Shown here piece by piece: positions 12,130-51,728 of a stretch of DNA of 64,000 nucleotides. Below the pieces are notes generated by a model. The model saw only the letters and a program-made list of their open reading frames with translations, had not been told where the DNA came from and did no database searches. A program made the position numbers and the translations under genes. Origin of the DNA: Candidatus Harrisonbacteria bacterium RIFCSPLOWO2_01_FULL_44_18. Lineage in GTDB: Bacteria; Patescibacteriota; Minisyncoccia; UBA6257; WO2-44-18. Every line of letters starts with the position of its first letter. Within the stretch, counting starts at the first letter, position 1. The DNA lies in assembly GCA_001817915.1 (NCBI GenBank), contig MHJJ01000014.1, forward strand, positions 3,695-67,694. The letters run 5' to 3'.

Positions 12130-13155
12130 ATGATACTTATTGATTCTCATACCCATATCCAATTTCCGGTTTATGATAATGATCGGGAGGCGGTTATTGA
12201 ACGCGCGAGAAACGCGGGGGTTTACCCCCACACCAAACGAGCATTGGCGTTAGAAGAAAATGATGCTCGTTATGGTGTGGGGGTAAAAATGATTTGCGTC
12301 GGCACTCAAGCATCAACTTCTGAATCGGCAATTAAGCTCGCGGAAAAATATCCAGAGGATGTTTGGGCGACAATCGGCTACCATCCCAATCATGTTGTGC
12401 CAGCGCAACATGCGCAGACTTTGCGGACTGGACGCAGACTTGCGCAGACAAATTGGTATCATGATCAGAAGGAGCAGAAATCGGCAAATCCGCCGCGATT
12501 TAATATTGAAGAACTGCGCAGGCTTGCTCAGCATCCGAAAGTCGTGGCGATCGGGGAGTGCGGTTTGGATTACTACCGACTAGCCGCTAGCGATTTGCCA
12601 CTAGCCACTAGGGTTAAAGAAAAACAGAAAGAAATTTTTTTGCAGCAAGTCGAACTTGCGCAGGAATTAAATAAAGCATTGATGATCCATTGCCGGCCAT
12701 CCAAAGGCACCAACGACGCCTACGAAGATTTGCTGAAGATTTTACAGGAGATTAAATTTTCTCAGAATGTAATTATTCATTTTTATGTTGGTTCTGTTGA
12801 AATGGCACGAAAATTTTTAGATGCCGGATTTTACCCCCACACCAAACGAGCATTATCGGGGGGCGTCAATGGCGCGAATGCTCGTTATGGTGCGGGGGTT
12901 TATTTTACCTTCGGTGGCGTGATTACATTTTCACGCGACTATGACGAAATTATAAAATACATTCCTCTGGATCGAATTCTTCTGGAAACCGACGCGCCCT
13001 ATGTCGCGCCGGAACCGTATCGCGGCCGCCGCAACGAACCGGCATACATCGTGGAAACCGCTAAAAAACTAGCGGAAGTTAAAAATGTAAGCTTTGAAAA
13101 AGTGGCTGAAATAACTACCAAAACTGCTGGACAGATTTTTAAGTTGCCATTATAA
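12130..13155 (+). CDS. tatD: TatD-family metal-dependent DNase with in-frame repeat insertions
   Basis: Begins LIDSHTHI and carries the GECGLDYY and ETDAPY motifs. It is about 80 aa longer than typical TatD because of three in-frame repeat insertions. Confidence 0.8.
   Translation: MILIDSHTHIQFPVYDNDREAVIERARNAGVYPHTKRALALEENDARYGVGVKMICVGTQASTSESAIKLAEKYPEDVWATIGYHPNHVVPAQHAQTLRTGRRLAQTNWYHDQKEQKSANPPRFNIEELRRLAQHPKVVAIGECGLDYYRLAASDLPLATRVKEKQKEIFLQQVELAQELNKALMIHCRPSKGTNDAYEDLLKILQEIKFSQNVIIHFYVGSVEMARKFLDAGFYPHTKRALSGGVNGANARYGAGVYFTFGGVITFSRDYDEIIKYIPLDRILLETDAPYVAPEPYRGRRNEPAYIVETAKKLAEVKNVSFEKVAEITTKTAGQIFKLPL
12221..12287. mobile_element. palindromic miniature element (CCCCACACCAAACGAG family), copy 1, inside tatD in-frame
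   Basis: TIRs tttacccccacaccaaacgagcat / atgctcgttatggtgtgggggtaaa. No stop codon; translated as VYPHTKRALALEENDARYGVGVK. Confidence 0.7.
12829..12906. mobile_element. palindromic miniature element, copy 2, inside tatD in-frame
   Basis: ttttacccccacaccaaacgagcat...atgctcgttatggtgcgggggtttatttt; translated as FYPHTKRALSGGVNGANARYGAGVYF. Confidence 0.7.
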
Positions 13156-13182: not shown

Positions 13183-13575
13183 ATGCGAAAGTACGCCGCA
13201 TTGTTGATGATGGTATCAGCGTTGGGGTTTGGTATTTTGGCATTGTTATCTTTGGCTGGCATCGCGTTATGCGTCACTAAAGGATTGCCAAGAGAGAGTT
13301 TATGGTTCGCGTTGGCTGCATATTTCCCGATATCCGTAGGCGGATTCTTTGTCGTTTTGTTTTTTATATTTATCCTGGCTATGGAAAGCAATGATAATGT
13401 TCTTTTCGGCGCGGCGATTTTTTTAGGCTCTGTTTTTAGCATGTGCGTGACAGTAATTGCTACTGTCTCTGGCGTCCCGATGTTATTATTACCTGCCGCT
13501 ATTGGATGGGGATACGCCGTTGTAACTGTAATAACAGTCATGATACGGCGAAAACATAAAACAAAAGGGAATTAA
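13183..13575 (+). CDS. hypothetical small membrane protein (4 TM)
   Basis: 130-aa hydrophobic ORF with an SD (GAGAGGAG) upstream. Confidence 0.5.
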   Translation: MRKYAALLMMVSALGFGILALLSLAGIALCVTKGLPRESLWFALAAYFPISVGGFFVVLFFIFILAMESNDNVLFGAAIFLGSVFSMCVTVIATVSGVPMLLLPAAIGWGYAVVTVITVMIRRKHKTKGN

Positions 13576-13792
13576 GCGACGCGCTGCGCTTCATTAAAAG
13601 AGAATTAAAAGAAGCCAAGGGCCGATAAAAATCGGCCTTTTGTTTTACCTTTCAATAATGTAAATTATTGAAAGGTAAAACATTTTTAAAAGATCGTTGA
13701 AAAAAAGCTTGAGATTAATTACTGCGCAACAAATAACACAACAAACAACATCCTTACAAACTTGAGAATGTAAGGATGTTGTGTGGTAAGTG

Positions 13793-13962
13793 CGGTAAGC
13801 TCTGAATTACGAAACTCAGTTTTCCGTCATTGCGAGGAGGCTTTGCGACGCGGCAATCATACGTTGCTATCTGTATAAATGAATAAATAATAAAGTAAGA
13901 TTGCTTCGCGAATCCTCGCAATGACGATAGTTTGATAGTTTCGTAATTCAGAGCGGTAAGCG
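13793..13962. mobile_element. MITE-like element with 17-bp TIRs and 8-bp target-site duplication
   Basis: TIR ctctgaattacgaaact / agtttcgtaattcagag. Direct repeat cggtaagc on both flanks. Inner inverted repeat cgtcattgcgagg/cctcgcaatgacg. Confidence 0.6.
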
Positions 13963-13983
13963 TGTTGTGCCAAAAAATTTGCT

Positions 13984-14010
13984 TGACAAATTTTATAGGT
14001 TTGCTATTAT
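13984..14010 (+). promoter_or_regulatory. sigma70-like promoter (TTGACAAATT...TATTAT)
   Basis: gcTTGACAAATTttataggtttgcTATTAT immediately upstream of the 14062 CDS. Shares the extended box with the 2960 and 22190 promoters. Confidence 0.45.
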
Positions 14011-14061
14011 ATGGGAAGTTCGTTGATTGCTTTTCGAGGGCCATTTTCAGAAGGAGGAGCG

Positions 14062-14652
14062 ATGGAAGCGATGAGTAAGAACCATTGCTGTCTTTGTCAT
14101 AGTAATCCCGCCGAGGGTTTTTGCGTCTGTGATTGCAAGGAGCTGGCGAAGAACGCGCAGGCTGCGCCGGTTGCTTCGCCTGCGAATGCCGTTGCGGTTA
14201 TGCCCGATTTTCGGTTCAGCGTTCTTGAGCAAGCGCTTTTCCCGGTAATTGGTCTTTGGAATATTTTGGTGGGTTTAGTGAGAGGGATTTCCATAGCCTT
14301 GGGGTGTGCGGTAGTTTTGGGTTTGTGTACTTGGGTAATGCCAACTGCCGCGCGTAAGGGTTGTGTCGTTGACCACGCTAGTGCCAGCACGGACTGGAGT
14401 GCCATTTTTTTGGTTGGTTTATTGTTTTATCCGCTCTTTATTGTACTGGTTGTGTTCTTGGTTTTGTCTATTGGCGCGGCAATCGTGAGCGGTGATTGGG
14501 CTGGTTCAACGAAATGGGAGCAAAGCTACGACTATCTATTTAGCTACATTCAGCCCTTTTTAATTCCTCTTGCCGTTACCAACGCCTTGAGTCTCCTCTA
14601 CGAAATCGGCCGCACTAAGAGGAAGTTCGCTCAAGCGCCGATCAAGGTCTAA
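14062..14652 (+). CDS. hypothetical membrane protein with Cys-rich N-terminus
   Basis: Start set at the ATG preceded by the AAGGAGGA SD. N-terminal CCLCHSNP...CVCDC followed by 4 TM helices. Confidence 0.5.
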   Translation: MEAMSKNHCCLCHSNPAEGFCVCDCKELAKNAQAAPVASPANAVAVMPDFRFSVLEQALFPVIGLWNILVGLVRGISIALGCAVVLGLCTWVMPTAARKGCVVDHASASTDWSAIFLVGLLFYPLFIVLVVFLVLSIGAAIVSGDWAGSTKWEQSYDYLFSYIQPFLIPLAVTNALSLLYEIGRTKRKFAQAPIKV

Positions 14653-14703: not shown

Positions 14704-14811
14704 GATTTCGGGAATCGATAGATACTTCTATCGATTCCCGAAATCGCCAAGTTAATTCAAATCCAAAAAGCCGATTCCCGAAATCACGCCGAACTATTGA
14801 TTTCGGGAATC
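14704..14811. promoter_or_regulatory. cluster of GATTCCCGAAATC palindromes (putative operator/repeat) upstream of leuS
   Basis: Perfect 42-bp palindrome gatttcgggaatcgatagatacttctatcgattcccgaaatc, plus a second pair at 14773-14811 overlapping the candidate -35/-10 (TATAAT at 14821-26) of leuS. The same 13-mer recurs at 37547-37599 upstream of the pilin gene. Confidence 0.5.
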
Positions 14812-23402: not shown

Positions 23403-23405
23403 GAG

Positions 23406-23630
23406 CCACCTCCTTTCATATAAATCTCTGTCTGACTTCCGATGTCCCCAATATTGATAATTTTCCGAAGGGCAATCGGCTGGAAGCCGATCGGACATCG
23501 GAAGTCTCAATATTAGGACATCCGATATCCGTCCCGATGTTCATCGGGATCGCCTGCGGCGAGAATATAATATTTGGGATATCGGATGTCTGCCAGCAGC
23601 GCGACCGAGAGCTTATATGAAAGGAGGTGG
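23406..23630. mobile_element. MITE-like element with 17-18-bp TIRs (CCACCTCCTTTCATATAA)
   Basis: ccacctcctttcatataa...ttatatgaaaggaggtgg, with internal inverted repeats gacttccgatgtcc/ggacatcggaagtc. Confidence 0.55.
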
Positions 23631-23761
23631 CCGCGCCTCCTCAATTTTCAATGAACCGCAATGTAAGTTAAATTATTGTATAGAATGGTTTCGATGTCAA
23701 AATCAGATAGGTTGTCGCGATTATTGCATATCAGACTTGGATTTATTAAATTATATATTAC

Positions 23762-23981: not shown

Positions 23982-24464
23982 ATGATCAAAGTCGCGCTTT
24001 TTAATGAAATTTCCCATGAATTAGGCAATACTCTTCTTGTGGATGTCACAAGCAGGATCGTTGAAAGGATTAATAATCTTTTGAGGCAGTTGTCAGTCAA
24101 CGCTCCATATTGGACTATCGGATGTTTCGCGGAGTTTTTGCGGCAGTCCAATAATCATTTAGTTGTTGCTATTGATGGCAAAATTATTGCTGGTATGGGA
24201 ACGGTTATTTTGAGCTATTCTTTAATGGGCCGTCACGCGAGGATCGAGGATGTGATTGTAGATAAACCATATCTCGGTAAGGGTTTGGGTCGAAAAATTG
24301 TCGAGGAATTAATCAGAATCGCCAACAAGGAAGGAGCAAGATGGATTGATTTAACCAGCAATTCTTCGCGAGTCGGGGCACTGAAGCTTTATAGAAGCTT
24401 GGGATTTAAGGATGTGGCGACAAATTGTTTGCGGCTGGCTTTGGGAGAGCAGGATTCGAGCTAG
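23982..24464 (+). CDS. GNAT-family N-acetyltransferase (C-terminus supplied by a MITE)
   Basis: Acetyl-CoA-binding motif KGLGRKIVEELIRIA. The last 7 codons and the stop codon lie inside the TIR of the 24444 element. Confidence 0.7.
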   Translation: MIKVALFNEISHELGNTLLVDVTSRIVERINNLLRQLSVNAPYWTIGCFAEFLRQSNNHLVVAIDGKIIAGMGTVILSYSLMGRHARIEDVIVDKPYLGKGLGRKIVEELIRIANKEGARWIDLTSNSSRVGALKLYRSLGFKDVATNCLRLALGEQDSS

Positions 24465-24713
24465 CATCAATTTAGTGAGCCAATTCCCGCCCATCTTCTT
24501 TGTTACTCGTCGCTTATGTGCCTATTGGCACACTACGCTCCTCGCGCCTTGAATCTGGACAGGAATTGGCTCACCCGAAGGGAAGAGAGAATTTGAGCCA
24601 AGTTCGAGGAACGACGAGGAGGTTGTGCTGGTAAGCACATCGACGAGGAGTGACAAAGAAATTGGCTCAAATTCTCTCTTCTAAATTTGACGCCAGTTCG
24701 AATCCTGCTCTCC
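24444..24713. mobile_element. MITE-like element with about 33-bp TIRs whose ends resemble a tRNA T-arm/acceptor (GTTCGAATCCTGCTCTCC)
   Basis: ggagagcaggattcgagctagcatcaatttag ... ctaaatttgacgccagttcgaatcctgctctcc. A short copy of about 70 bp lies at 48682-48752. Confidence 0.6.
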
Positions 24714-24759
24714 TAGAGAAATAACCGCGGTTTCAAAAAATTCCCTCGAATGAGGGAAT

Positions 24760-25592: not shown

Positions 25593-25607
25593 GGCTCTAT
25601 TCAAAGC

Positions 25608-25694
25608 GGAGGGTTGGCAGAGTGGTCTAACGCGCCGCACTTGAAATGCGGTTTCCCGGAAACGGGATCACAGGTTCGAATCCTGTACCCTCCG
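25608..25694 (+). tRNA. tRNA-Ser (anticodon UGA), type II
   Basis: Acceptor GGAGGGT/ACCCTCC, anticodon arm CCGCA CTTGAAA TGCGG, long variable arm, T-arm ACAGGTTCGAATCCTGT. Flanked by 12-bp inverted repeats tctattcaaagc/gctttgaataga. Confidence 0.85.
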
Positions 25695-25768
25695 CTTTGA
25701 ATAGAAACTTGTCCTCCGAAGGAGGATCCGCCTCCGGTGGAAAATGCGGTATCGCAACCAAAAAGAAA

Positions 25769-26440: not shown

Positions 26441-26706
26441 AGAACCCATCTCAATAATAATCCCCAAACGCGTTCTTGGCTAGGGCCTGTCTGAGTGCGA
26501 GGCTTTCCGACGCAGGCGTACCTGAAAGGTACGTCGAGGAGGAATAACGAAGCAATCGGACAGGATAGCCAGAACCCGAAGGGATATGGCTCTTTTTGTC
26601 CATCGCGGCGTTGTCTCCTTTTCATCGTATTCTTTGAGTACGACTTCGTCGTCGCGCCTTGCGCTGAATGAAAAGAGTTCACATCGCGTTAGGAATTATT
26701 ATTGAG
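26441..26706. mobile_element. MITE-like element with 21-bp TIRs (AGAACCCATCTCAATAATAAT)
   Basis: agaacccatctcaataataat...attattattgagatgggttct. The interior is rich in hairpins (gcgtacctgaaaggtacgtc). Confidence 0.55.
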
Positions 26707-26754
26707 ATGGGTTCTCGTATATAATAAAGGTAAAATAATACGCAATTTTAATAA

Positions 26755-31470: not shown

Positions 31471-31612
31471 CGAAGTAATCGCGAACAACGCGAATCTATG
31501 CAAAATAATGCTAATAATTTATTCGCGTTATTTCGAATCAGATTAGCATTATTCGCGATTACTCCGATTCGTGTTATTTTGAAACAAATTAGCATTATTC
31601 GCGATTACTCCG
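31471..31612 (+). repeat. 145-bp structured intercistronic element, copy 1 (pilM stop to pilN start)
   Basis: cgaagtaatcgcgaacaacgcgaa...aatgctaataatttattcgcgttatttcgaatcagattagcattattcgcgattactccgATG, with several internal inverted repeats. Near-identical copies lie at 34958-35108 and 36183-36331. Confidence 0.85.
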
Positions 31613-34957: not shown

Positions 34958-35108
34958 TATAATTAACGAAGTAATCGCGAACAACGCGAACCTATGCAAA
35001 ATAATGCTAATAATTTATTCGCGTTATTTCGAATCAAATTAGCATTATTCACGATTACTCCGATTCGTGTTATTTTGAAACAAATTAGCATTATTCGCGA
35101 TTACTCCG
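34958..35108 (+). repeat. 145-bp structured intercistronic element, copy 2 (pilB stop to pilT start)
   Basis: About 95 % identical to copy 1. Confidence 0.85.
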
Positions 35109-36182: not shown

Positions 36183-36331
36183 CGAAGTAATCGCGAACAA
36201 CGCGAACCTATGCAAAATAATGCGAATACTGTTAACGGAGCAATCGCTAATAATGCGAATTTTGGCAAAATAATGCTAATAATTTATTCGCGTTATTTTG
36301 AATCAGATTAGCATTATTAGCGATTACTTCG
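36183..36331 (+). repeat. structured intercistronic element, copy 3 (variant; pilT stop to pilC start)
   Basis: Same 5' block taacgaagtaatcgcgaacaacgcgaacctatgcaaaataatgc and same 3' block aatgctaataatttattcgcgttattttgaatcagattagcattatt. The central segment is diverged. Confidence 0.8.
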
Positions 36332-37546: not shown

Positions 37547-37599
37547 GATTCCCGAAACCGATAGTGGATTTCGGGAATCCAGCGGATTCCCGAAATCCC
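37547..37599. promoter_or_regulatory. GATTCCCGAAATC palindrome cluster upstream of major pilin gene
   Basis: gattcccgaaaccgatagtggatttcgggaatc and ggattcccgaaatcc. Same motif family as at 14704-14811. Confidence 0.5.
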
Positions 37600-48664: not shown

Positions 48665-48681
48665 CGTCAATCCCGCGCCTA

Positions 48682-48752
48682 GGAGAGCAGGATTCGAACT
48701 AGCGTCAAATTTAGAAGAGAGAATTTGAGCCAAGTTCGAATCCTGCTCTCCT
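48682..48752. mobile_element. short copy of the tRNA-end-like MITE (GGAGAGCAGGATTCGAAC TIRs)
   Basis: ggagagcaggattcgaactagcgtcaaatttagaagagagaatttgagccaagttcgaatcctgctctcc. Confidence 0.6.
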
Positions 48753-48756
48753 ATTA

Positions 48757-51557: not shown

Positions 51558-51623
51558 GCGATGAACAGGGCCCAGCCGTAATTTCAAAACACCCTAACGG
51601 GTGCTTTTTGTTTCAGCAGTCTG

Positions 51624-51698
51624 CGCGGGCGGCCGGATTTGAACCGGTGACCTTCCGCGTGACAGGCGGACGCTCTAACCAGACTGAGCTACGCCCGC
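51624..51698 (-). tRNA. tRNA-Asp (anticodon GUC)
   Basis: GCGGGCG TA GCTC AGTCTGGTTA GAGC G TCCGC CTGTCAC GCGGA AGGTC ACCGG TTCAAAT CCGGC CGCCCGC G. The flanks extend the acceptor helix by 4 bp (CTGC/GCAG). Confidence 0.85.
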
Positions 51699-51728
51699 GC
51701 AGATTGCTGGAATACCTTTGTTAATATA

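What the first reader, a model, noticed from the sequence alone, without database searches (positions are those of the whole stretch)
13793..13962. MITE with a clean 8-bp target-site duplication
17-bp TIRs (CTCTGAATTACGAAACT) are flanked on both sides by the direct repeat CGGTAAGC. This is the signature of a recent transposase-mediated insertion, yet no transposase is present in the window.

At least three other TIR elements lie in this window: 23406-23630, 26441-26706 and the tatD family. This implies several non-autonomous element families active in a very small genome.
Basis: seen in the sequence. Interest (0 to 1): 0.5.

Follow-up and report, generated by a model that had tools for sequence, protein, structure and literature searches.

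The report
MITE of an IS982-like transposon
This is a real 154-bp miniature transposon left between two genes of a tiny groundwater bacterium (Candidatus Harrisonbacteria); the enzyme that moves it is an undescribed IS982-like transposase, found with identical ends in about 1-kb elements in many related ultra-small bacteria. That makes it an ordinary kind of element from a previously uncatalogued family.

Summary
Window 13800-13953 is a 154-bp element with perfect 17-nt terminal inverted repeats (CTCTGAATTACGAAACT). It is flanked by direct repeats of CGGTAAG.

It is a non-coding MITE. The same ends bound at least 19 distinct elements of about 1.0 kb in genome and metagenome contigs labelled mostly as candidate-phyla-radiation (CPR) bacteria. 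Each carries an intact 267-277-aa DDE transposase whose best family match is IS982, at 25-29% identity and below NCBI's cutoff. The same ends also bound about 70 MITEs of 40-320 bp with unrelated interiors.

Of 84 elements with usable flanks, 29 have perfect 7-8-bp duplications, against 0.6 expected by chance. The target consensus is the palindrome CTTNAAG.

A 93.6%-identical copy with a different duplication, and a full-length element, occur in the same Rifle aquifer sample. A diverged relative has the same terminator and promoter only about 18 nt apart, without the insert.

There is no transposase in the window, no Rfam match, and no evidence of a regulatory effect.

Verdict: a genuine MITE and a new member of a known kind. 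Interest is modest.

The parts
13793..13799 (.). Left target-site duplication, CGGTAAG
   Evidence: It fits the family pattern C-N5-G.
13800..13953 (.). MITE body, 154 bp. Non-coding, and folds as one long imperfect hairpin.
   Evidence: It is 93.6% identical to L075 1808-1963, which sits at a different site with the duplication CATAATG.
13800..13816 (+). Left terminal inverted repeat, CTCTGAATTACGAAACT. Inferred transposase binding and cleavage site.
   Evidence: The same sequence bounds the 1-kb IS982-like elements.
13825..13838 (+). Left arm of the inner 14-nt perfect inverted repeat, CGTCATTGCGAGGA. It is part of a GTCATTGCGAGGA...GCGACG...GCAATC hairpin module.
   Evidence: I4. The same module occurs singly outside TIR-bounded elements in L033, L035 and L136.
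13913..13926 (-). Right arm of the inner inverted repeat (second copy of the core module, inverted)
13937..13953 (-). Right terminal inverted repeat
13954..13960 (.). Right target-site duplication, CGGTAAG
13617..13640 (+). Context: intrinsic-terminator-like hairpin after the upstream ORF (13183-13575). It is conserved in relative L061.
13983..14010 (+). Context: promoter-like site, TTGACA-16-TATTAT, for the downstream 196-aa gene (14062-14652). It begins 22 nt after the right duplication. The promoter and 5'UTR are conserved in L061.

Best explanation
[quoted passage not shown] Its 17-nt ends are the recognition ends of an IS982-like DDE transposase that is encoded elsewhere, on about 1.0-kb insertion sequences carrying the identical ends.

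Inferred mechanism. The transposase, supplied in trans, bound the two TIRs. It joined the element's 3' ends to target DNA cut with a 7-nt stagger at a C-N5-G site; here the site is CGGTAAG, a weak match to the family optimum CTTNAAG. Gap repair then duplicated the 7 bp.

Cargo. The interior is not derived from the transposase gene. It consists of two inverted copies of a short GC-rich hairpin module that also occurs on its own in other CPR genomes.

Location. The insertion sits in a harmless spacer between a terminator and the next gene's promoter. It is fixed in the sampled Candidatus Harrisonbacteria population.

What is shown: the anatomy, the family, the duplications, the target consensus, the matching autonomous elements, and the absence of the insert at the corresponding spacer of a relative.

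What is inferred: trans-mobilisation by that transposase, the 7-nt staggered cut, and the neutrality of the insertion.
For: Anatomy.

Shared TIR. The exact 18-mer scan hit 43 loci in species-representative genomes, nearly all labelled CPR/Patescibacteria. Thirteen contigs came from one Magasanikiibacteriota MAG, and in most of them the TIR lies about 100 nt from a contig end, which is the signature of a multi-copy repeat.

Size classes. There are 89 unique TIR-bounded elements, with size modes at 150-199 bp and about 1000 bp.

Duplications. Perfect duplications of 7 bp or more occur in 29 of 84 elements, against 0.59 in flank-shuffled pairings. Of these, 23 are 7 bp and 6 are 8 bp. The target logo is C-T-T-N-A-A-G. 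Three full-length elements have perfect duplications: L065 CACGTAG, L105 CTCGGCAG and L115 CTTGTTG.

Transposase.
- All 19 full-length elements have intact 267-277-aa ORFs with conserved YTDaTD, DAGY and IEFDFRxLK motifs.
- Pfam DDE_Tnp_1_3 scores 87-91 bits against a gathering score of 27.
- The best NCBIfam match is the IS982 family, E = 1e-29 to 3e-31, covering nearly the whole model.
- The listed best tblastn hits in plasmids are 25-29% identical over about 90% of the length. Ten of the 15 are annotated 'IS982 family transposase' and the other five have no listed feature.
- The catalytic D, D and E align with annotated IS982 transposases.

Other copies. A copy of the same subfamily lies at another site in the same Rifle sample (L075, 93.6% identical, duplication CATAATG). 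A full-length element is also present in that sample (L100). Contig L007 leaves the window sequence exactly at the right TIR end and carries the subfamily-consensus G, which indicates a second copy.

Relative. L061 lacks the insert between the conserved terminator and promoter.

Amplification within one genome. Three copies more than 98% identical lie at three sites in one Saccharibacteria MAG (L021, L028, L032).
Against: - No exact empty site (a single CGGTAAG in a near-identical strain) was found. All 17 contigs carrying the flanking genes contain the element.
- L061 is a distant relative (46% aa identity at the downstream gene). It lacks the whole 325-340-nt block, not just the MITE.
- It is unknown whether the Harrisonbacteria genome itself encodes the transposase. 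The GTDB scan did not return this genome.
- The MITE interior shows no similarity to the IS interior, so descent from that IS is not shown. Only the ends are shared.
- The transposase scores below NCBIfam's IS982 cutoff (100-109 bits against 130).
- The ends do not start with the family's typical 5'-AC.
- No transposition experiment exists.
Confidence: 0.9

Rival explanations
1. The true ends are the 18-nt GCTCTG...CAGAGC and the duplication is only 5 bp (GGTAA). The insertion would be into a C|N5|G target, so the constant G and C belong to the element rather than to the target.
For: Both readings give the same final sequence. G precedes CTCTG in 83 of 89 elements and C follows CAGAG in 83 of 89, including elements with no recognisable duplication. 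The IS982 inverted-repeat consensus has C at position 2 and T at position 9 (PMC7335449), which matches only if the G is position 1.
Against: Two elements have T instead of C next to the right end, and the same T begins the left repeat (L125 TCATTTAG, L115 TATAAAG). This is expected if that base is duplicated target. Under the 5-bp reading each case is a 1-in-4 coincidence. The search pattern also forced the G at one end of every hit.
Confidence: 0.2
2. The element is a conserved structured non-coding RNA or regulatory hairpin of this locus, and the flanking repeat is coincidental.
For: The predicted hairpin is very stable on both strands, z = -9 to -10. It lies 22 nt upstream of a promoter.
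Against: - No Rfam family matches, even at E <= 1.
- It is absent from the corresponding spacer in L061, although the terminator, promoter and 5'UTR are conserved there.
- The same ends bound dozens of unrelated interiors at unrelated loci, each with its own duplication.
- There is no T-tract that would make it a terminator.
Confidence: 0.03
3. It is a REP/BIME-like palindromic element spread by a RAYT-type (HUH) transposase or by recombination, not by a DDE transposase.
For: The core module GTCATTGCGAGGA...GCAATC is a short GC-rich hairpin. It also occurs singly in other genomes, as REPs do.
Against: HUH-mobilised elements make no target duplications and have no long TIRs (established knowledge). 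Here the TIRs are identical to those of a DDE-encoding IS, and 7-8-bp duplications are the rule. The core module is better seen as cargo.
Confidence: 0.04
4. It is an ancient, dead relic that is no longer mobilisable because no cognate transposase is left in this lineage.
For: The element is fixed in every contig recovered. Only one copy lies in 64 kb. It differs from the subfamily consensus at 2 or more positions. The target CGGTAAG is off-consensus.
Against: The TIRs and the duplication are both perfect. Intact full-length elements and a 93.6% copy co-occur in the same sample. The L007 junction points to a second copy whose flank carries a hairpin family typical of this genome.
Confidence: 0.25

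Closest known systems
IS982-family insertion sequences (ISfinder family; review PMC7335449)
   Same: The parental elements are about 1.0 kb (991-1069 bp; family mean 996 bp). They have a single ORF and a DDE transposase matching Pfam DDE_Tnp_1_3. The whole protein aligns with annotated IS982 transposases, with the catalytic D, D and E conserved. The IRs are 17-18 bp and the direct repeats 7-8 bp (family range 2-10, commonly 6-9).
   Different: - Identity to annotated members is only 25-29%; the review delimits its seven clusters at 35%.
- The score is below NCBIfam's IS982 cutoff.
- The protein is shorter, 267 aa against about 290, lacking the N- and C-terminal tails.
- The ends read (G)CTCTGAATT, not the typical 5'-AC(N)6T(N)5TT.
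- The target is strongly palindromic, CTTNAAG.
- The hosts are mostly labelled CPR/Patescibacteria, which are absent from the review's list of 12 host groups.
ISCca4-derived MITE of the Cardinium endosymbiont cOegib (PMC9769881)
   Same: A short, non-coding element bounded by the inverted repeats of an IS982-family element. It is multi-copy in a small, host-dependent bacterial genome and is presumed to be mobilised in trans by intact parental copies.
   Different: The Cardinium MITE is about 240 bp and retains short sequence stretches traceable to its parent IS. The element here is 154 bp and shares only the TIRs with the IS. Its interior is a captured hairpin module, and many unrelated interiors use the same ends.
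Classical bacterial MITEs (Correia elements of Neisseria, RUP of S. pneumoniae, Nezha of cyanobacteria, MITEAba12 of Acinetobacter, PMC6382973)
   Same: Size of 100-300 bp, TIRs, target duplications, a hairpin-forming interior and intergenic location.
   Different: Different parental transposase families, TIR sequences and duplication lengths (from my own knowledge: TA for Correia, 9 bp for MITEAba12).

Membership tests
MITE (non-autonomous TIR element) | Small size (tens to a few hundred bp) with terminal inverted repeats | tested here: met
   154 bp with 17/17-nt perfect TIRs.
MITE (non-autonomous TIR element) | Target-site duplication directly abutting both ends | tested here: met
   CGGTAAG on both sides. 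At family level, 29 of 84 are perfect against 0.6 by chance.
MITE (non-autonomous TIR element) | No transposase coding capacity | tested here: met
   No ORF is contained in the 154 bp. The only ORF crossing it (13754-14044, minus strand, 96 aa) has no Pfam hit. tblastn with the transposases finds nothing in the window.
MITE (non-autonomous TIR element) | TIRs shared with an autonomous element that encodes a transposase | tested here: met
   Nineteen full-length elements of about 1 kb carry the identical TIR and intact ORFs.
MITE (non-autonomous TIR element) | Multiple copies at different sites in the same genome | tested here: inconclusive
   There is one copy in the 64-kb window. A 93.6% copy lies at another site in the same sample (L075), and the L007 junction implies a second copy, but assignment to the same genome is not proven. 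Multi-copy status within single genomes is shown for other subfamilies: three sites in one Saccharibacteria MAG.
MITE (non-autonomous TIR element) | Empty (uninterrupted) allele of the insertion site | tested here: inconclusive
   No polymorphism in 17 contigs. A distant relative, L061, lacks the whole block between the conserved terminator and promoter.
IS982 family (for the parental IS) | Element of about 0.85-1.3 kb with a single transposase ORF | tested here: met
   991-1069 bp, each with one 267-277-aa ORF. Family ranges are from PMC7335449.
IS982 family (for the parental IS) | DDE transposase homologous to family members | tested here: met
   PF13612 at 87-91 bits against GA 27. The annotated features under the best plasmid tblastn hits are IS982 family transposases. 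D106, D183 and E230 are invariant in the alignment with three annotated members.
IS982 family (for the parental IS) | Score above NCBIfam NF033520 (IS982 equivalog) cutoff of 130 bits | tested here: not met
   100.6 and 109 bits. It is the best-scoring family by far, but below the cutoff.
IS982 family (for the parental IS) | IR ends 5'-AC(N)6T(N)5TT | tested here: not met
   The ends are (G)CTCTGAATTACGAAACT. If the G is counted as position 1, only C2 and T9 fit (consensus from PMC7335449).
IS982 family (for the parental IS) | Direct repeats of 2-10 bp | tested here: met
   7 bp in 23 elements and 8 bp in 6.
Known structured RNA family (Rfam 15) | Covariance-model match | tested here: not met
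   No hit on 13793-13962 at gathering score or at E <= 1.

The most novel reading that the evidence does not exclude
One IS982-like transposase clade with an almost invariant 17/18-nt end and a CTTNAAG target may be the common mobiliser of many unrelated hairpin cargoes. It would operate across most CPR/Patescibacteria lineages: Harrison-, Magasanikii-, Staskawicz-, Uhr-, Lipton-, Peri- and Saccharibacteria, and possibly contigs binned as DPANN archaea. That would imply frequent horizontal exchange of mobile DNA among ultra-small episymbionts. It would also offer a native, host-matched transposon system for genetics in CPR bacteria, which are otherwise hard to manipulate.
Probability: 0.3. Interest if true: 0.55.

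Novelty: new member of a known kind. Interest (0 to 1): 0.33.

Why it matters
The element itself is an ordinary MITE with no sign of affecting its neighbours.

What is mildly useful is what it leads to. The parental IS982-like clade gave 891 protein clusters at E <= 1e-10. None of the 120 clusters listed carries a family name in the public sources searched; a few are called only 'Transposase DDE domain', 'transposase' or 'hypothetical protein'. No paper in the held library gives its end sequence, and none of the listed results of a search combining IS982 with CPR terms mentions IS982.

The clade appears to be a major repeat family in CPR genomes. Those genomes are about 1 Mb and are usually described as streamlined.

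Practical consequences:
- It explains assembly breaks in CPR MAGs, where the TIR sits about 100 nt from many contig ends.
- It explains spurious ORF calls across hairpin repeats.
- It provides defined ends, a target motif and intact transposase genes that could be tried as a genetic tool.

Tried and rejected
- An exact empty site was looked for by fetching every contig that encodes the two flanking proteins. All 17 carry the element.
- The homologue search for the 196-aa neighbour gave only one diverged relative.
- The upstream ORF of that relative is not homologous to the window's 130-aa ORF, so only the terminator and promoter could be compared.
- Rfam gave nothing on the element at gathering score or at E <= 1.
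- The viral-contig scan for the TIR gave 0 hits, so there is no evidence of phage carriage.
- Full-text literature searches for the TIR and core sequences returned only unrelated primer matches.
- Blast of the MITE interior against all full-length elements found no similarity beyond the TIR, so a simple internal-deletion origin is rejected.
- An IS66-type reading (ends starting GTAAG) was considered and rejected, because GTAAGC is not inverted at the right end.
- An outward-facing promoter in the right end was looked for by eye and with the scan. None is convincing.
- Cluster look-ups of the transposases gave no organism or family names.
- The TIR of the 26441 element was not found in any fetched locus.

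Full report
**Observation.**
Window 13800-13816 (CTCTGAATTACGAAACT) and 13937-13953 form a perfect 17-nt inverted repeat. It is 18 nt if G13799 and C13954 are counted. The octamer CGGTAAGC lies at 13793-13800 and 13954-13961. The last C of the left copy is also the first base of the left repeat arm, so the non-overlapping duplication is the 7-mer CGGTAAG.

The TIR pair never arose in 100 shuffles. No perfect 17-mer inverted repeat arose in 30 simulated windows. The 154 bp fold into one long hairpin on either strand, z = -9 to -10. The fold includes an inner perfect 14-nt repeat, CGTCATTGCGAGGA, at 13825-13838 and 13913-13926.

**Setting.**
The element lies in the 486-nt spacer between a hypothetical 130-aa ORF (13183-13575) and a hypothetical 196-aa gene (14062-14652). 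Nearby genes are metG, a HAD hydrolase, tatD and leuS. Reading 5' to 3', the spacer contains:
- a terminator-like hairpin (13617-13640);
- two further perfect or near-perfect hairpins (13641-13682 and 13742-13785);
- the element;
- 22 nt after the right duplication, a TTGACA-16-TATTAT promoter (13983-14010) and a GGAGG ribosome-binding site.

Exact look-ups of LeuRS and MetRS name the organism as a Candidatus Harrisonbacteria MAG, a CPR/Parcubacteria lineage. The contig and sample names point to the Rifle aquifer metagenomes.

**Population.**
Seventeen contigs from about a dozen assemblies encode the flanking proteins. All contain the element, with 0-1 mismatch over the region compared. Contig L007 follows the window up to the last base of the right TIR and then continues into unrelated sequence (AGAGC|TACAGGG...). 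It carries the subfamily-consensus G where the window has T.

The new flank of L007 contains a GATTTCGGGAATC hairpin. That hairpin family is over-represented in the window: 11 matches against 0.24 expected. The simplest reading is an assembly cross-over into a second copy in the same or a very close genome. Its flank, CTACAGG, again fits C-N5-G.

**Relatives of the element.**
An exact scan for GCTCTGAATTACGAAACT in one genome per GTDB species returned 43 loci. Nearly all are labelled CPR: Magasanikiibacteriota, Saccharibacteria, Staskawicz-, Uhr-, Lipton- and Peribacteria, and Parcubacteria. In one Magasanikiibacteriota MAG, 13 contigs carry the TIR, in most of them about 100 nt from a contig end. 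That is the mark of a multi-copy repeat that breaks assemblies.

About 17 chance 18-mer matches are expected in a collection of that size (my arithmetic). Isolated single hits, such as the one in Nanohalalkaliarchaeum, therefore carry no weight.

Many are from the very Rifle sample that holds the window's contig (Ga0209541).

After pairing ends (up to 3 mismatches allowed) and removing duplicates, there are 89 unique TIR-bounded elements. Their size modes are 150-199 bp and about 1000 bp.

**The missing transposase.**
All 19 unique full-length elements (991-1069 bp) carry one intact ORF of 267-277 aa.
- Pfam: DDE_Tnp_1_3, 87-91 bits against a gathering score of 27.
- NCBIfam: the best match by a wide margin is the IS982 family, E = 1e-29 to 3e-31 over nearly the whole model. 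The score of 100-109 bits is below the 130-bit cutoff.
- tblastn against plasmids: the listed best hits are 25-29% identical over about 90% of the length. Ten of the 15 listed are annotated 'IS982 family transposase' and five have no listed feature.
- Alignment with three annotated members: the two aspartates and the glutamate (YTDxTD, DxGY, IE) are invariant, as are a lysine 7 residues after the glutamate and an RS pair.

The IS982 review (PMC7335449) gives a mean length of 996 bp, about 290 aa, IRs of 11-32 bp, direct repeats of 2-10 bp and ends reading 5'-AC(N)6T(N)5TT. The CPR elements fit the size, ORF and repeat criteria, but not the end sequence. They fall below the 35% identity the review uses to delimit clusters. 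I therefore call them an IS982-like clade, not a certified member.

A database search with the copy from the Rifle sample (L100) found 891 protein clusters at E <= 1e-10. Most sit on contigs of about 1 kb. None of the 120 listed has a family name.

Upstream of the gene, the full-length elements share a TGnTAyAAT-like promoter and a conserved hairpin, AACAAACAGCACC...GGTGCTGTTTGTT.

**Duplications and target.**
Among 84 elements with usable flanks, 29 have perfect duplications of 7 bp or more (23 of 7 bp, 6 of 8 bp), and 13 more are one mismatch away. Random re-pairing of flanks gives 0.59. Three full-length elements have perfect duplications (L065, L105, L115), so the autonomous and miniature forms insert in the same way.

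The 7-mers give the palindromic consensus C-T-T-N-A-A-G. The window's CGGTAAG keeps C....AAG.

The G before and the C after the element are nearly constant. A 5-bp duplication with 18-nt ends would therefore give the same sequence as a 7-bp duplication with 17-nt ends. Two elements in which a T replaces that C on both sides (L125, L115) favour the 7-8-bp reading, but do not settle it.

**Cargo.**
MITEs with these ends have at least five unrelated interiors. The window's subfamily includes:
- L075, 154 bp, 93.6% identical, duplication CATAATG, from the same Rifle sample;
- L097, 78% identical, with an extra 21-nt palindrome;
- partial matches in L173, L126 and L128.

The interior shows no similarity to the interior of the full-length elements. 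Its core, GTCATTGCGAGGAG..GCGACG..GCAATC, also occurs singly, outside any TIR pair, in L033, L035 and L136. The MITE therefore looks like two inverted copies of an independent short hairpin module captured between IS ends, rather than a deletion derivative.

**Approximate empty site.**
The only diverged homologue of the 196-aa protein (46% identity) lies on L061 and is again followed by leuS. There the same terminator (GCCGATAAAAATCGGC) is followed after about 18 nt by the same promoter and a strikingly conserved 5'UTR.

The window has 342 nt between these landmarks. The hairpins and the MITE are therefore lineage-specific additions, not conserved parts of the locus. This is not a base-exact empty site.

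**Rivals.**
- A conserved structured RNA is excluded by the variable interiors, the site-specific duplications, the absence from L061 and the lack of any Rfam match.
- A REP/RAYT-type mechanism does not produce duplications or long TIRs.
- The element could be a stranded relic in this genome. The window has no transposase and I could not examine the rest of the genome.
- I found no outward promoter and no terminator tail, so I infer the insertion is neutral.

**Verdict.**
The element is a MITE of an undescribed IS982-like family that is common in CPR bacteria. IS982-derived MITEs are already known, for example in Cardinium (PMC9769881). None of the listed results of a search of the held library combining IS982 with CPR terms mentions IS982, and none of the papers returned by the sequence search holds the end sequence. 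It is a new member of a known kind, of modest interest.

Noticed in passing
window 13983-14061 vs L061 278-358: The promoter and 5'UTR of the hypothetical 196-aa gene are about 81% identical at DNA level with a relative whose protein is only 46% identical (TTGACAAATT..TTTGCTATTATATG..GGTTCGTTGATTG.TTTTCGAGG). This suggests a conserved leader or regulatory site.
   Followed up: partly
window 25596-25705 and 51611-51712: tRNA-Ser (25608-25695) and tRNA-Asp (51623-51698) each sit inside a 19-21-nt perfect or near-perfect inverted repeat. The repeat extends the acceptor stem by about 12 bp into both flanks.
   Followed up: no
window 14704-14745, 14773-14811, 37547-37597 (also L007 1472-1503): A small palindromic repeat family built on GATTTCGGGAATC gives 11 matches in the window against 0.24 expected. 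Two copies lie just upstream of leuS.
   Followed up: partly
window 23405-23631: A perfect 19-nt inverted repeat, GCCACCTCCTTTCATATAA, whose arms contain RBS-like GGAGGTGGC next to divergent gene starts. There are two internal 14-nt hairpins. It may reflect duplicated 5' leaders rather than a MITE, and no obvious duplication was seen.
   Followed up: partly
window 26441-26715: A 27-nt (93%) inverted repeat bounds 275 bp. The interior contains a GCGAGGCTTTCCGACGCAGG...CGAAGCAATC motif resembling the MITE core module. Its TIR was not found in any other fetched locus.
   Followed up: partly
window 12130-13155 (tatD): The TatD ORF is 341 aa against a 253-position Pfam model. It contains repeated TTTACCCCCACACCA units in both orientations (12221, 12273, 12829), which suggests in-frame palindromic insertions of the RPE kind.
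   Followed up: no
window 24439-24718 and 48680-48753: Inverted repeats of a tRNA 3'-half-like sequence (TAGGAGAGCAGGATTCGAAC...). These may be tRNA-derived repeats or attachment-site remnants.
   Followed up: no
window 31471-31612, 34967-35108, 36183-36331: A further inverted-repeat family, CGAAGTAATCGCGAACAACGCGAA, is present at three or more sites.
   Followed up: no
window 13641-13682 and 13742-13785: Two more hairpins, one with a perfect 19-bp stem and one with a near-perfect 17-bp stem, lie between the terminator and the MITE. Both are absent from relative L061, and the first is followed by a T-run, like a second terminator.
   Followed up: partly
L030, L051, L056 (contigs CAZEDL01...), L059, L037: Paired-TIR MITEs occur on 105-167-kb contigs deposited as 'uncultured Gammaproteobacteria'. 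A full-length element lies on a 1.7-kb contig binned as Woesearchaeota. These are either mis-labelled or mis-binned, or the family reaches beyond CPR.
   Followed up: no
L046, L059, L065, L100 and others, first ~100 nt after IRL: The full-length IS982-like elements share a conserved 5' leader hairpin (AACAAACAGCACC-loop-GGTGCTGTTTGTT) between a TGnTAyAAT-like promoter and the transposase start codon. It may act as a translational control element.
   Followed up: no
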